Part shown: piece after piece, positions 1 to 2,827 of the stretch | Position numbering within the stretch: position 1 is the stretch's first letter | How the letters are laid out: every line of letters begins with the position of its first letter | Sequence record: FN394987.1 | DNA: 2,827 bases | Direction: 5' to 3' (one strand) | From: Enterobacteria phage CUS-3 | Notes under the pieces: model-generated | Databases searched by the model: none | Seen by the model: the letters and a program-made list of their open reading frames with translations, nothing else | Told to the model about the DNA's origin: nothing | Program-made: the position numbers and the translations under genes

Positions 1-543
1 ATGGCGCGCCCAACAAAGTATCAAGAGGCGTATGCCGAACAGGCACGCAAACTGTGCTTGCTGGGCTACACCGATGCAGAGCTTGCTGATTTCTTCGAAG
101 TCAGTGAGTCAACTATTAACAAGTGGAAGCTTGATTATCCTGAGTTTTCGGAGTCCATAAAAAAGGGTAAGGCCGTCGCTGATGCAGAAGTTAGTGACCG
201 TCTTTATCAACGCGCTATGGGCTTCGTGGCTCCAGACATCGATATTCGTGTTATTGAAAACAGAATTGTCGAAACTCCTCTTGAGAAGTATTACCCGCCT
301 GATACAACAGCTGCCATCTTCTGGCTTAAGAACCGACAGAAGGATAAATGGCGCGACAAGGTTGATCACGAGCTAACAGGCAAAGACGGCGGCGCAATCC
401 AGATTGAAACATCACCGATGAGTACTCTATTCGGAAAANNNNNNNNNNNNNNNNNNNNNNNNNNNNNNNNNNNNNNNNNNNNNNNNNNNNNNNNNNNNNN
501 NNNNNNNNNNNNNNNNNNNNNNNNNNNNNNNNNNNNNNTCTGA
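1..543 (+). CDS. Phage small terminase subunit-like protein (helix-turn-helix DNA-binding N-terminus); visible 1-438, 3' end hidden in N run
   Basis: ATG at 1-3 opens frame 1: MARPTKYQEAYAEQARKLCLLGYTDAELADFFEVSESTINKWKLDYPEFSESIKKGKAVADAEVSDRLYQRAMGF...WRDKVDHELTGKDGGAIQIETSPMSTLFGK. The layout (short N-terminal HTH-like segment, then a conserved core, ending in a GKDGG-type C-terminal region) matches what I remember of Sf6/lambdoid-type small terminase subunits. The first in-frame stop (TGA 541-543) lies just after the N run 439-538, so the true stop may be inside the masked 100 nt. No upstream context is available because the ORF starts at window position 1. Confidence 0.6.
   Translation: MARPTKYQEAYAEQARKLCLLGYTDAELADFFEVSESTINKWKLDYPEFSESIKKGKAVADAEVSDRLYQRAMGFVAPDIDIRVIENRIVETPLEKYYPPDTTAAIFWLKNRQKDKWRDKVDHELTGKDGGAIQIETSPMSTLFGKXXXXXXXXXXXXXXXXXXXXXXXXXXXXXXXXXX
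439..538. other. Run of 100 N (unresolved or masked bases)
   Basis: Directly visible in the sequence. It hides the 3' end of the terminase-like ORF and whatever lies upstream of the tailspike-like frame. Confidence 1.
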
Positions 544-1762
544 GCCATGTGTAAAATATTATGATGGCATTCTGTATCTGACGACCAGGGGGACATTAAG
601 TACTCAACCCGGTAGTTCATTGCACAGAAGCTCTGATTTAGGTACATCATGGAATTCTCTTCGCTTCCCAAATAATGTTCATCACTCAAACCTTCCTTTT
701 GCCAAAGTTGGCGATGAGCTGATTATTTTTGGCAGTGAGCGCGCATTTGGTGAGTGGGAAGGAGGAGAACCTGATAACCGTTATGCAGGAAACTATCCAA
801 GAACATTTATGACCAGAGTTAACGTCAATGAGTGGAGTCTGGATAATGTAGAGTGGGTTAATGTTACTGATCAGATTTATCAGGGCGGAATAGTTAACTC
901 TGCGGTTGGTGTTGGTTCAGTTTGTATCAAAGACAACTGGCTGTACTACATTTTCGGTGGGGAAGACTTTCTAAACCCATGGAGCATAGGGGATAACAAC
1001 AGAAAATATCCTTATGTTCACGATGGTCACNNNNNNNNNNNNNNNNNNNNNNNNNNNNNNNNNNNNNNNNNNNNNNNNNNNNNNNNNNNNNNNNNNNNNN
1101 NNNNNNNNNNNNNNNNNNNNNNNNNNNNNNNNNNNNNNNNNNNNNNNNNNNNNNNNNNNNNNNNNNNNNNNNNNNNNNNNNNNNNNNNNNNNNNNNNNNN
1201 NNNNNNNNNNNNNNNNNNNNNNNNNNNNNNNNNNNNNNNNNNNNNNNNNNNNNNNNNNNNNNNNNNNNNNNNNNNNNNNNNNNNNNNNNNNNNNNNNNNN
1301 NNNNNNNNNNNNNNNNNNNNNAGCGGCGGTGAAACAACGTCTTCAGCAGATGGTGCAATGATAACGTTGCATGGTTCCGGAAGCAGTACTCCACGTCGCG
1401 CGGTATATAACGCACTCGAACATCTTTTTGAGAACGGAGATGTTAAACCTTATCTTGATAATGTAAATGCTCTTGGTGGTCCGGGAAACAGGTTCTCGAC
1501 AGTTTATCTTGGCTCCAATCCTGTGGTTACCAGTGACGGAACATTAAAGACAGAGCCGGTCTCTCCTGACGAAGCATTGCTGGATGCCTGGGGTGACGTC
1601 AGGTATATCGCTTATAAATGGCTGAACGCTGTCGCTATAAAGGGGGAAGAAGGGGCGAGGATACATCATGGTGTAATCGCGCAGCAACTTCGTGATGTTC
1701 TTATTTCTCACGGACTCATGGAAGAAGAAAGCACAACATGCCGCTATGCCTTTCTTTGCTAT
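539..1762 (+). CDS. Tailspike/tail-fibre protein, endosialidase-like (sialidase Asp-box beta-propeller segment plus C-terminal intramolecular chaperone domain); partial at both ends, both ends inside N runs
   Basis: Frame 2 has no stop in any visible base from 539 to 1030 and from 1322 to 1762 (translated codon by codon). The two visible blocks are in the same frame across the 291-nt N run, which is a multiple of 3. Block 1: SEPCVKYYDGILYLTTRGTLSTQPGSSLHRSSDLGTSWNSLRFPNNVHHSNLPFAKVGDELIIFGSERAFGEWEGGEPDNRYAGNYPRTFMTRVNVNEWSLDNVEWVNVTDQIYQGGIVNSAVGVGSVCIKDNWLYYIFGGEDFLNPWSIGDNNRKYPYVHDGH. Block 2: SGGETTSSADGAMITLHGSGSSTPRRAVYNALEHLFENGDVKPYLDNVNALGGPGNRFSTVYLGSNPVVTSDGTLKTEPVSPDEALLDAWGDVRYIAYKWLNAVAIKGEEGARIHHGVIAQQLRDVLISHGLMEEESTTCRYAFLCY. 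The six-frame track lists no ORF here, apparently because no stop codon bounds it inside visible sequence. Start and stop are not visible; coordinates are the first and last visible codons. Confidence 0.7.
629..652 (+). other. Sialidase-type Asp-box (BNR) motif S-S-D-L-G-T-S-W
   Basis: Codons 629-652 read AGC TCT GAT TTA GGT ACA TCA TGG, i.e. SSDLGTSW. This fits the Asp-box consensus S-x-D-x-G-x-T/S-W that marks beta-propeller sialidases, including phage endosialidases. Only one copy is visible; others could lie in the masked 1031-1321. Confidence 0.6.
1031..1321. other. Run of 291 N (unresolved or masked), internal to the tailspike-like frame
   Basis: Directly visible. Length 291 = 97 codons, and the reading frame is the same on both sides. 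Confidence 1.
1532..1762 (+). other. C-terminal intramolecular chaperone domain (Peptidase S74, 'chaperone of endosialidase' type) with predicted Ser|Asp autoproteolytic site; domain continues into the N run
   Basis: Motif ...GSNPVVTS|DGTLKTEP...(about 35 aa)...IHHGVIAQQLRDVL. Ser is codon 1532-1534, Asp is codon 1535-1537, and GVIAQQ is 1670-1687. The pattern S-D-x-x-L-K followed 30-40 residues later by G-[LIV]-I-A-Q-[EQ] is the signature of the self-cleaving C-terminal chaperone of endosialidases, phage T5 L-shaped tail fibre and related tailspikes (family knowledge, from memory). Confidence 0.75.
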
Positions 1763-2179
1763 NNNNNNNNNNNNNNNNNNNNNNNNNNNNNNNNNNNNNN
1801 NNNNNNNNNNNNNNNNNNNNNNNNNNNNNNNNNNNNNNNNNNNNNNNNNNNNNNNNNNNNNNNNNNNNNNNNNNNNNNNNNNNNNNNNNNNNNNNNNNNN
1901 NNNNNNNNNNNNNNNNNNNNNNNNNNNNNNNNNNNNNNNNNNNNNNNNNNNNNNNNNNNNNNNNNNNNNNNNNNNNNNNNNNNNNNNNNNNNNNNNNNNN
2001 NNNNNNNNNNNNNNNNNNNNNNNNNNNNNNNNNNNNNNNNNNNNNNNNNNNNNNNNNNNNNNNNNNNNNNNNNNNNNNNNNNNNNNNNNNNNNNNNNNNN
2101 NNNNNNNNNNNNNNNNNNNNNNNNNNNNNNNNNNNNNNNNNNNNNNNNNNNNNNNNNNNNNNNNNNNNNNNNNNNNNNN
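1763..2179. other. Run of 417 N (unresolved or masked) hiding the tailspike 3' end, the intergenic region and the acetyltransferase 5' region
   Basis: Directly visible. It ends exactly one base before the ATG at 2180. Confidence 1.
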
Positions 2180-2827
2180 ATGTTGTTTTCCGTTGATGAT
2201 AATGGGTCAGGTAATGTTTTTGTATGTGGAGATCTTGTAAATAGCAAAGAGAATAAAGTTCAGTTCAATGGAAACAATAACAAACTTATTATAGAAGATG
2301 ATGTTGAGTGTCGATGGCTTACCGTAATATTTAGGGGTGATAATAATTACGTAAGAATACATAAAAACAGTAAGATTAAAGGTGATATTGTCGCAACAAA
2401 AGGTTCAAAAGTTATTATCGGTAGAAGAACGACAATAGGTGCAGGTTTTGAAGTCGTCACTGATAAGTGCAATGTTACAATTGGCCATGACTGCATGATA
2501 GCAAGAGATGTTATTTTGCGTGCATCAGATGGGCATCCTATATTTGATATTCATAGCAAAAAAAGGATTAATTGGGCAAAAGATATCATTATATCTAGTT
2601 ACGTATGGGTAGGGAGAAATGTCTCTATAATGAAAGGAGTATCTGTTGGAAGCGGATCTGTCATTGGGTATGGGAGTATTGTAACTAAAGATGTGCCATC
2701 TATGTGTGCAGCAGCCGGTAATCCAGCAAAAATAATAAAAAGAAATATAATATGGGCAAGAACGGATAAAGCGGAGCTAATTAGTGATGACAAGAGATGC
2801 TCCAGCTATCATGCGAAGCTCACGCAA
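2180..2827 (+). CDS. neuO: Hexapeptide-repeat (left-handed beta-helix) sugar O-acetyltransferase, NeuO-like polysialic acid O-acetyltransferase; 3' end runs off the window, true start may lie upstream in the N run
   Basis: Frame 2 is open from ATG 2180 to the window end (216 codons, no stop): MLFSVDDNGSGNVFVCGDLVNSKENKVQFNGNNNKLIIEDDVECRWLTVIFRGDNNYVRIHKNSKIKGDIVATKGSKVIIGRRTTIGAGFEVVTDKCNVTIGHDCMIARDVILRASDGHPIFDIHSKKRINWAKDIIISSYVWVGRNVSIMKGVSVGSGSVIGYGSIVTKDVPSMCAAAGNPAKIIKRNIIWARTDKAELISDDKRCSSYHAKLTQ. Repeated [LIV]-G-x-x-x-x-[IV] hexapeptide units (IGAGFEVV, IGHDCMI, VGRNVSI, VGSGSVI, IGYGSIV) and the C-terminal ...AAGNPAKIIK... are typical of LacA/Maa/NeuD-type acetyltransferases. A His sits in a DGHP loop (codon 2534-2536) with a Trp 24 residues later (codon 2606-2608). 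The gene is AT-rich (hand-sampled G+C about 30-35%, against about 45-50% upstream) and lies directly downstream of a sialidase-like tailspike, as neuO does in K1-specific P22-like prophage. The symbol is my best recognition; confidence in the acetyltransferase family is higher (about 0.8) than in the neuO identity. The six-frame track lists no ORF here, apparently because no stop codon lies inside the window. Confidence 0.55.
   Translation, partial: MLFSVDDNGSGNVFVCGDLVNSKENKVQFNGNNNKLIIEDDVECRWLTVIFRGDNNYVRIHKNSKIKGDIVATKGSKVIIGRRTTIGAGFEVVTDKCNVTIGHDCMIARDVILRASDGHPIFDIHSKKRINWAKDIIISSYVWVGRNVSIMKGVSVGSGSVIGYGSIVTKDVPSMCAAAGNPAKIIKRNIIWARTDKAELISDDKRCSSYHAKLTQ

What the first reader, a model, noticed from the sequence alone, without database searches (positions are those of the whole stretch)
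539..2827. Capsule-targeting tailspike and capsule-modifying acetyltransferase side by side (K1 polysialic-acid prophage module, CUS-3-like)
The visible sequence joins (a) a tailspike with a sialidase Asp-box and the self-cleaving C-terminal chaperone typical of endosialidases and (b) a low-GC hexapeptide-repeat O-acetyltransferase immediately downstream. This is the arrangement known for K1-specific P22-like prophage, where the endosialidase tailspike degrades polysialic acid and the adjacent NeuO O-acetylates the host's own capsule, a receptor-modifying lysogenic-conversion function. It is biologically notable because one module both recognises and alters the same surface polymer. It is a known system type, not a new one.
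Basis: partly seen in the sequence, partly recalled or inferred. Interest (0 to 1): 0.55.

Follow-up and report, generated by a model that had tools for sequence, protein, structure and literature searches.

The report
Known CUS-3 endosialidase–NeuO prophage module

Summary

**What the blocks are**
- Block 539-1030 is residues 487-650 of the CUS-3 endosialidase tailspike. It carries the beta-propeller, an Asp-box and three catalytic-site equivalents.
- Block 1322-1762 is residues 748-894. It holds the end of the stalk and the self-cleaving chaperone domain with its Ser/Lys dyad.
- Block 2180-2827 is NeuO. It is identical over 214 residues to the crystallised enzyme (3JQY), has His119 and Trp143, and is 36% GC.

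1. The window is not contiguous DNA. It matches a series of 2827-bp GenBank CUS-3 genotyping records in which separately sequenced pieces are joined by runs of N.
2. The terminase piece (1-438) lies about 16.8 kb from the tailspike in the real prophage.
3. The neuO phase-variation repeat (AAGACTC)n has been removed from the record. The join ATGTT|GTTTTCC at 2184/2185 is its site. In 54 of 55 E. coli genomes examined, the same locus is longer than the window by an exact multiple of 7 (5-53 copies), and 15 of those 54 are in frame.

In the complete CUS-3 genome, neuO starts 153 nt after the tailspike stop, and integrase and attL follow.

Verdict: already known, low interest.

The parts
1..438 (+). 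Complete coding sequence (without stop) of the CUS-3 terminase small subunit. It is not physically adjacent to the rest: about 16.8 kb away in the prophage.
   Evidence: 100% amino-acid identity over 146/146 residues to CP000711 22265-22705. PHROG 309, terminase small subunit, E=2e-68. No Pfam hit.
439..538 (.). Arbitrary spacer of 100 N that joins unlinked fragments in the deposited record.
   Evidence: The same N run and the same feature coordinates appear in FN394988.1 and its sister records. The real distance between terminase and siaK1 is 16.8 kb.
539..1030 (+). siaK1 fragment 1: endosialidase tailspike residues 487-650, the C-terminal part of the catalytic beta-propeller. Asp-box SSDLGTSW lies at 629-652. 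Equivalents of endoNF Glu581, Arg596 and Arg647 lie at 542-544, 587-589 and 740-742.
   Evidence: Pfam End_beta_propel E=1.6e-104. 164/164 identical to the CUS-3 endosialidase. Ungapped match to endoNF 1V0E chain positions 336-499. Residue mapping. The catalytic residue list is taken from PMC12632334.
1031..1321 (.). N run of 291 bases (97 codons, in frame) that stands for the unsequenced siaK1 residues 651-747.
   Evidence: Blocks 2 and 3 map to residues 487-650 and 748-894 of the 981-aa protein. 747-650 = 97 codons = 291 nt.
1322..1531 (+). siaK1 fragment 2a: the end of the tailspike stalk (residues 748-817). It ends at the Thr that is the last residue of the mature endoNF crystal chains.
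   Evidence: Pfam End_tail_spike E=7e-33 on block residues 1-70. The mature endoNF chains 1V0E and 3GVK end exactly at block residue 70.
1532..1762 (+). siaK1 fragment 2b: the start of the C-terminal intramolecular chaperone (autocleavage) domain. The cleavage-site Ser (CUS-3 Ser818) is at 1532-1534 and the dyad Lys (Lys823) at 1547-1549.
   Evidence: Pfam Peptidase_S74 E=8e-12 on block residues 71-132. 3GW6 E=4e-62; the crystal chain has Ala where this block has Ser71. Coordinates. The Ser/Lys dyad with i, i+5 spacing is described in PMC3742443.
1763..2179 (.). N run of 417 bases that keeps true length. By inference it hides the last 87 codons of siaK1 (stop at about 2024-2026), the 153-nt intergenic spacer, and the left junction of the neuO cassette (about 2140/2141).
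   Evidence: In CP000711 (locus L002), block 3 ends at 7224, the siaK1 stop is at 7486-7488 and the neuO ATG is at 7642. The gap 7225-7641 is 417 nt.
2180..2827 (+). neuO, polysialic acid O-acetyltransferase: the complete reading frame without its stop, in a zero-repeat form. The VNTR site lies between 2184 and 2185 (ATGTT|GTTTTCC). Catalytic His119 is at 2534-2536 and Trp143 at 2606-2608. The Pfam Hexapep match is at 2585-2689.
   Evidence: Identical to NeuO crystal chain 3JQY over residues 3-216, E=3e-142. Hexapep E=4e-11. His119 and Trp143 were found and match the numbering given in PMC3046976. CUS-3 has (AAGACTC)19 at exactly this join, and a TAA follows window base 2827. GC is 36.1%.

Best explanation

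**Tailspike (539-1762).** These two pieces belong to siaK1, the endosialidase tailspike. The established mechanism is as follows. A homotrimer is anchored to the virion by a P22 gp9-type head-binding domain. It cuts alpha-2,8-polysialic acid (the K1 capsule) in a beta-propeller active site. It folds with the help of a C-terminal chaperone domain, which then removes itself by Ser/Lys-dyad autoproteolysis.

**NeuO (2180-2827).** NeuO is a trimeric left-handed beta-helix enzyme. It transfers acetyl groups from acetyl-CoA to the capsule's sialic acids, using His119 and Trp143.

**Arrangement and phase variation.** In the real prophage, neuO sits 153 nt downstream of the tailspike stop, as an 850-bp low-GC cassette, and is followed by integrase and attL. 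Its expression is switched on and off by slippage of an (AAGACTC)n repeat placed 2 nt after the ATG. It is in frame only when n is divisible by 3. That repeat was left out of the deposited record, so the window shows an artificial zero-repeat, in-frame allele.

**Biological effect (shown by others).** Acetylation of the capsule lowers killing by K1-specific phages, which fits receptor modification and superinfection exclusion.

**Basis.** Shown here: identity, domain content, catalytic residues, spacing, repeat site and repeat-length variation. Taken from the literature: enzymatic activities, phase switching and phage protection.
For: Record identity:
- At least 17 listed CUS-3 records of 2827 bp share the same four features, and FN394988.1 differs from the window at 2 positions.

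Protein identity:
- The terminase block is 146/146 identical to CUS-3.
- The two siaK1 blocks are 164/164 and 144/147 identical to CUS-3.
- NeuO is identical to 3JQY.

Domains:
- End_beta_propel 1.6e-104, End_tail_spike 7e-33, Peptidase_S74 8e-12 and Hexapep 4e-11.
- The full CUS-3 protein has Head_binding, End_N_terminal, End_beta_propel with an End_beta_barrel insert, End_tail_spike and Peptidase_S74.

Catalytic equivalents:
- Glu, Arg and Arg of the endosialidase.
- The Ser/Lys dyad of the chaperone domain.
- His119 and Trp143 of NeuO.

Gene order and repeat:
- Gene order and the 19-copy repeat in CP000711.
- The locus is longer than the window by an exact multiple of 7 in 54 of 55 genomes. 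My figure of 21 copies for MS7163 equals the published value.

Literature:
- Phase variation and enzyme mechanism (PMC3046976).
- Phage protection (PMC9659370; PMC13001214).
Against: Nothing contradicts this reading. Its limits are these:
- The junction between the tailspike and neuO is masked in the window and is inferred from the reference genome.
- The on/off state of neuO in the source strain cannot be known from this record.
- The exact accession of the window was not found. The closest record in the collection differs by 2 nt.
- The endoNF residue numbering rests on the mature chain ending at Thr910, which I know from the endoNF literature but could not re-read here.
Confidence: 0.97

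Rival explanations
1. The window is a real contiguous stretch of a decayed prophage, in which a deletion has brought the small terminase gene next to a truncated tailspike.
For: CUS-3-like prophages do decay and lose content (PMC9659370). IAI39 carries a tailspike truncated by IS629 next to neuO.
Against: The spacer is exactly 100 N. At least 17 records from different strains have the same length and identical feature coordinates, and they are titled 'partial ... terminase gene, siaK1 gene and neuO gene'. No E. coli genome has one place that covers 80% or more of the query; matches cover either 539-2827 or the terminase piece separately.
Confidence: 0.02
2. The acetyltransferase is a housekeeping hexapeptide enzyme (LacA, Maa or CysE type) that merely lies near a generic tail fibre, with no link to the capsule.
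For: The hexapeptide-repeat fold is shared, and LacA and Maa do appear among the hits.
Against: NeuO (3JQY) matches at 3e-142 with full identity. OatWY is at 3e-31, LacA at 8e-19 and the serine acetyltransferases at about 1e-5. The tailspike blocks hit only endosialidase-specific Pfam families.
Confidence: 0.005
3. The source strain truly carries a neuO allele with zero repeats. That allele would be locked on, not phase-variable, and the window would show it faithfully.
For: The window reads ATGTTGTTTTCC with no repeat, and the frame is open through to the last base. Enzyme without heptads is active (PMC3046976).
Against: All the sister records, from different strains, have the same 2827-bp length. 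Natural alleles vary from 5 to 53 copies in the genomes sampled here, and from 2 to 93 in the literature. Identical lengths therefore mean the repeat was omitted on purpose. Excluding the repeat for typing is common practice (PMC13001214 methods).
Confidence: 0.02

Closest known systems
Enterobacteria phage CUS-3 (CP000711, E. coli RS218): siaK1 endosialidase tailspike followed by neuO
   Same: The terminase block is 100% identical and siaK1 residues 487-650 are 100% identical. Residues 748-894 are 98% identical. The neuO DNA is about 99.8% identical. The frame and spacing across the two length-preserving N runs are the same.
   Different: There are three amino-acid differences in the stalk and chaperone piece: window Gly, Thr and Ala against RS218 Arg766, Ile807 and Thr832. 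The window has no AAGACTC repeat, whereas RS218 has 19 copies and is out of frame. The window is a concatenate, not contiguous DNA.
GenBank CUS-3 genotyping records FN394986-FN395002 and FN394218 (these are probably the records of Mordhorst et al. 2009, Environ Microbiol 11:3154; I could not check that paper, so the attribution is my inference)
   Same: The same 2827-bp layout, the same N runs and the same four partial coding sequences. FN394988.1 differs at only 2 positions, 1500 and 1574.
   Different: None of the listed records is identical to the window. It is presumably a further genotype of the same series.
Endosialidase endoNF of phage K1F (PDB 1V0E, 3GVK, 3GW6) and the phi92 endosialidase (4HIZ)
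   Same: The same beta-propeller, stalk and chaperone-domain architecture. The Glu581, Arg596 and Arg647 equivalents, the cleavage-site Ser and the dyad Lys are all conserved.
   Different: A different virion adaptor. CUS-3 uses a P22 gp9-type Head_binding domain, while K1F is a T7-like phage. The sequences are clearly homologous but substantially diverged from the window blocks (alignments). K1F has no neuO.
OatWY, the polysialic acid O-acetyltransferase of Neisseria meningitidis (PDB 2WLC)
   Same: A hexapeptide left-handed beta-helix O-acetyltransferase that acts on polysialic acid, with conserved active-site His and Trp (PMC3046976).
   Different: A distant relative (E=3e-31). It is chromosomal and part of a capsule locus, not phage-borne, and it has no heptad VNTR.

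Membership tests
Phage endosialidase tailspike (endo-N-acetylneuraminidase, as in endoNF and CUS-3 SiaK1) | Catalytic beta-propeller domain specific to endosialidases | tested here: met
   Pfam End_beta_propel E=1.6e-104 on 539-1030. PDB endosialidases 4HIZ at 1.8e-83 and 1V0E at 3e-80.
Phage endosialidase tailspike (endo-N-acetylneuraminidase, as in endoNF and CUS-3 SiaK1) | Active-site residues equivalent to endoNF Glu581, Arg596 and Arg647 | tested here: met
   Glu at 542-544, Arg at 587-589 and Arg at 740-742 in an ungapped alignment to 1V0E. The residue list is from PMC12632334. The H350 and R549 equivalents lie outside the window and were not checked.
Phage endosialidase tailspike (endo-N-acetylneuraminidase, as in endoNF and CUS-3 SiaK1) | Sialidase Asp-box (S-x-D-x-G-x-x-W) | tested here: met
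   SSDLGTSW at 629-652. A second Asp-box-like motif, SGDDGKTW, lies in CUS-3 SiaK1 near residue 259, outside the window (seen in the alignment).
Phage endosialidase tailspike (endo-N-acetylneuraminidase, as in endoNF and CUS-3 SiaK1) | C-terminal intramolecular chaperone domain (Peptidase_S74) with the autocleavage Ser and a Lys five residues later | tested here: met
   Peptidase_S74 E=8e-12. 3GW6 E=4e-62. Mature endoNF chains end one residue before the Ser. Ser is at 1532-1534 and Lys at 1547-1549. The dyad is described in PMC3742443.
Phage endosialidase tailspike (endo-N-acetylneuraminidase, as in endoNF and CUS-3 SiaK1) | Endosialidase activity on alpha-2,8-polysialic acid | not testable with these tools
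   The CP000711 annotation cites direct assay evidence (PMID 16689790) for the nearly identical protein.
NeuO (CUS-3 polysialate O-acetyltransferase, hexapeptide left-handed beta-helix family) | Hexapeptide-repeat fold and near-identity to characterised NeuO | tested here: met
   Hexapep E=4e-11. 214/214 identical to the 3JQY chain. Six matches to [LIV][GAED]xx[STAV]x.
NeuO (CUS-3 polysialate O-acetyltransferase, hexapeptide left-handed beta-helix family) | Catalytic His and the opposing Trp (His119 and Trp143 in repeat-less numbering) | tested here: met
   Residue 119 is H and residue 143 is W in the window's translation. Numbering follows PMC3046976.
NeuO (CUS-3 polysialate O-acetyltransferase, hexapeptide left-handed beta-helix family) | Phase-variable 5'-AAGACTC-3' VNTR placed 2 nt after the start codon | tested here: inconclusive
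   The window holds zero copies and shows the exact empty site, ATGTT|GTTTTCC, at 2184/2185. The repeat is present in the genomic counterparts: 5-53 copies in 54 genomes and 19 in RS218. Its absence here is best explained by the way the record was built.
Prophage CUS-3 (P22-like, Lederbergvirus) | CUS-3 structural and packaging genes together with siaK1 and neuO | tested here: met
   The small terminase is 100% identical to CUS-3, and siaK1 and neuO are as described above. The closest records are annotated as CUS-3 provirus.
Prophage CUS-3 (P22-like, Lederbergvirus) | Integrase and an att site at argW next to neuO | not testable with these tools
   The window stops at the last neuO codon. In CP000711, int and attL follow neuO. 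Related prophages sit at a second site by bioA (PMC9659370), so the source strain's site is unknown.

The most novel reading that the evidence does not exclude
neuO may be an independently gained and lost cassette, not a fixed part of CUS-3.

- It is a discrete 850-bp low-GC insertion, 717 bp without the repeat.
- It has precise junctions between the tailspike stop and a shared downstream stem-loop.
- The same tailspike 3' end and downstream flank occur without it in a prophage at the lambda attachment site (strain Ecol_AZ159), and with it at that same site in IAI39.
- A promoter-like site straddles the left junction, with the -35 in the phage flank and an extended -10 in the cassette.

On this reading, the pairing of a receptor-cutting and a receptor-masking function would be assembled by recombination at the tailspike 3' end.
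Probability: 0.35. Interest if true: 0.2.

Novelty: already known. Interest (0 to 1): 0.07.

Why it matters
The module is a textbook case of a prophage that both recognises and rewrites its host's surface receptor. The tailspike degrades polysialic acid, and the neighbouring phase-variable NeuO acetylates it. That acetylation changes antigenicity, immune recognition and susceptibility to K1 phages.

All of this has been published: discovery in 2005, the phage genome in 2006-2007, the enzyme structure in 2011, and phage-protection studies in 2022 and 2026. This window adds nothing to it.

The practical lesson for the scan is that some windows are deposited concatenates. Their N runs and edited repeats can create false adjacency and can hide the key regulatory element.

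Tried and rejected
- **Local BLAST against the full CUS-3 genome.** The loci L002 and L003 were not exported to the script machine. I did the mapping by reading the sequence and by pairwise protein comparisons.
- **Primary papers.** I tried to read the endoNF chaperone-cleavage paper and the neuO discovery paper by PMC id (PMC2666599, PMC555961). Neither is held. I used PMC3742443, PMC12632334 and PMC3046976 instead.
- **Alignment of the neuO-less prophage.** MAFFT placed the left flank of that sequence wrongly inside neuO. I read the junctions by eye from the three sequences.
- **Promoter and terminator scan of the siaK1-neuO-int interval.** It found no more promoter-like sites than shuffles do (6 against 5.3). 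One terminator-like stem-loop lies on the minus strand downstream of neuO. The promoter suggestion is therefore only a lead.
- **Rejected readings.** I considered and rejected a real terminase-tailspike fusion, a housekeeping acetyltransferase, and a natural zero-repeat allele (see the rival explanations).

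
Full report
**What the window is.**
The 2827-base window has four readable blocks (1-438, 539-1030, 1322-1762, 2180-2827) separated by runs of N. Each block is open in one forward frame with no stop.

A megablast against phage records found at least 17 'Enterobacteria phage CUS-3' entries of exactly 2827 bp. They match end to end at 98-99.9% identity and carry the same four features. 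The closest is FN394988.1, titled 'partial proviral terminase gene, siaK1 gene and neuO gene, genotype GT_4'. Its coding sequences sit at 1-438, 539-1030, 1322-1762 and 2180-2827. It differs from the window at only two positions, 1500 and 1574, and has its N runs in the same places.

The window is therefore one more record of a CUS-3 genotyping series, made of separately sequenced fragments joined by N. It is not a contiguous piece of genome. These are probably the records of Mordhorst et al. 2009, cited as reference 13 in PMC3046976. I could not read that paper, so the attribution is my inference.

**How the pieces map to the real prophage.**
- In the complete CUS-3 genome (CP000711), the small terminase gene lies at 22265-22705 and siaK1 at 2526-5471, which puts them 16.8 kb apart.
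- The window's block 1 is 146/146 identical to that terminase. The 100-N spacer at 439-538 therefore carries no distance information.
- Blocks 2 and 3 are residues 487-650 (164/164 identical) and 748-894 (144/147) of the 981-residue tailspike.
- The 291-N run equals the missing 97 codons exactly.
- The 417-N run equals the 417 nt between the end of block 3 and the neuO ATG in CP000711.
- It follows that the tailspike stop falls at about window 2024-2026, and that neuO begins 153 nt later, at 2180.
- The window ends on the last neuO codon. In CUS-3 a TAA follows directly, and then come the integrase and attL.

Every feature it named is there.
- 539-1030 matches the endosialidase-specific Pfam family End_beta_propel at E=1.6e-104.
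- It contains the Asp-box SSDLGTSW at 629-652.
- It aligns without gaps to the crystal chains of K1F endoNF and closely to the phi92 endosialidase.
- I numbered the endoNF chain from its last residue, the mature C-terminus Thr910. That residue number comes from my knowledge of the endoNF literature. On this numbering the window has Glu, Arg and Arg at the positions of Glu581, Arg596 and Arg647. A recent deep mutational scan lists these among the key catalytic residues (PMC12632334).
- 1322-1762 matches End_tail_spike on its first 70 residues and Peptidase_S74 from residue 71.
- The mature endoNF chains stop exactly at residue 70. The chaperone-domain crystal chain 3GW6 has Ala where the window has Ser71. 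A Lys follows five residues later, which is the Ser/Lys autocleavage dyad described for this domain (PMC3742443).
- 2180-2827 matches Hexapep and is 36.1% GC, against 42.5-47.8% for the other blocks.
- It is identical over 214 residues to the crystallised NeuO (3JQY, E=3e-142). The meningococcal OatWY follows at 3e-31, and LacA and CysE-type enzymes lie far behind.
- His119 and Trp143, the catalytic pair in repeat-less numbering (PMC3046976), are present.

In CUS-3 the neuO start reads ATGTT(AAGACTC)19GTTTTCCGTTGATGAT. The window reads ATGTTGTTTTCCGTTGATGAT. [quoted passage not shown]

I compared the length of the matching locus in 55 complete E. coli genomes and phage CUS-3 with the length in the window.
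- In 54 of them the excess is an exact multiple of 7, corresponding to 5-53 copies.
- Fifteen of the 54 (28%) have a copy number divisible by 3, which means in frame.
- The single exception carries an IS1 insertion.
- My count for MS7163 (21 copies) and the overall range and off fraction agree with a 2026 survey: 3-53 repeats, 65.6% off, and MS7163 at 21 (PMC13001214).
- Two isolates that appear by name to be the same poultry strain differ, with 19 against 14 copies.

Because all the sister records share one length while natural alleles vary this much, the repeat must have been left out on purpose. The in-frame 'zero-repeat' NeuO in the window is an artefact of how the record was built.

**How the module works.**
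*Shown here:* identity, domains, catalytic residues, spacing and repeat variation.

*From the literature:*
- The tailspike is a homotrimer. The full CUS-3 protein has a P22-type Head_binding domain, an N-terminal extension, the propeller with a beta-barrel insert, the stalk and the chaperone domain.
- It cleaves alpha-2,8-polysialic acid and sheds its chaperone domain after folding.
- NeuO is an acetyl-CoA-dependent homotrimer specific for long polysialic acid.
- Its repeat is translated into RLKTQDS heptads that raise catalytic efficiency.
- Slipped-strand mispairing switches the gene on and off (PMC3046976).
- Deleting neuO makes K1 strains more sensitive to lytic K1 phage. The host regulator DsdC controls neuO (PMC9659370).
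- Locked-on neuO increases survival against K1 phage and neutrophils but lowers serum resistance (PMC13001214).

**Side observations.**
- Aligning the region downstream of the tailspike in CUS-3, IAI39 and Ecol_AZ159 shows that neuO lies on a discrete insertion. In L002 coordinates this is 7603-8452, 850 bp including 133 bp of repeat. It sits between ...TTTTTAATGACA and CAATATTAATATAAGG....
- Ecol_AZ159 has the same tailspike and the same flanks but no cassette.
- Both IAI39 and Ecol_AZ159 carry the element beside ybhB-bioA, and the lambda att core GCTTTTTTATACTAA is visible. This agrees with the 'second, less common insertion site' between pgl and bioA reported in PMC9659370.
- A promoter-like site straddles the left junction. 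The scan found no more such sites than shuffles give, so this is only a lead.

**Verdict.**
The system is already known in detail. The window is an edited concatenate of it, and interest is low.

Noticed in passing
window 1-438 and 439-538: Block 1 is the complete CUS-3 small terminase gene without its stop. It is 100% identical in protein, hits PHROG 309 and has no Pfam hit. It is joined to the tailspike piece by an arbitrary 100-N spacer, although the two genes are 16.8 kb apart in the prophage. Near-identical terminase DNA also occurs in Klebsiella phage phiKp_30 (97%) and Escherichia phage N7 (98.6%).
   Followed up: yes
window 2184/2185 (L002 7647-7779): The neuO heptanucleotide repeat has been cut out of the record. 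In 54 of 55 genomes the locus is longer than the window by 7 x n, with n = 5-53, and 15 of the 54 are in frame. Two isolates that appear by name to be the same poultry strain (729_021014_1_4 and 729_xx_1_3_yolk) differ, with 19 against 14 copies.
   Followed up: yes
L002 7603-8452; L005 5706-6030; L004 5517-6700: neuO sits on a discrete 850-bp low-GC cassette with precise junctions between the tailspike stop and a shared stem-loop. Strain Ecol_AZ159 has the same 981-aa tailspike and the same flanks without the cassette.
   Followed up: partly
L004 (IAI39) 4213-6376; L005 (Ecol_AZ159) 6032-6430: In IAI39 and Ecol_AZ159 the tailspike end of the element abuts ybhB-bioA, and the lambda att core GCTTTTTTATACTAA is visible. 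This differs from the argW site of CUS-3. In IAI39 the tailspike is truncated by IS629 at about the stalk/chaperone boundary, while neuO is kept (8 repeats, out of frame). An 84-nt integrase remnant follows in both strains.
   Followed up: partly
L002 7597-7625: A promoter-like site scores 10 of 12 with a TG-extended -10. Its -35 (ATGACA) lies in the phage flank and its -10 (TAAAAT) inside the neuO cassette, with the -10 ending 16 nt before the ATG. The scan as a whole found no more sites than shuffles do.
   Followed up: no
window 539-1762: Phages vB_EcoP_ZX5 (39.6 kb), vB_EcoP-720R6 (46 kb) and two Phi05 contigs carry this tailspike DNA at 99.8-99.9% identity but show no neuO match. These may be free-living CUS-3 relatives or a tailspike exchange. 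I did not examine them.
   Followed up: no
window 1376-1378, 1499-1501, 1574-1576: The window's stalk and chaperone piece differs from RS218 CUS-3 by three amino acids: Gly, Thr and Ala against Arg766, Ile807 and Thr832. The propeller piece and NeuO show no amino-acid differences. Strain APEC O18 is 100% identical in DNA over 1322-2827.
   Followed up: partly
NZ_CP070066.1 (FDAARGOS_1296) 1627254-1629556: One genome has an IS1A element annotated between the tailspike and the acetyltransferase. It is the only locus whose extra length is not a multiple of 7.
   Followed up: no
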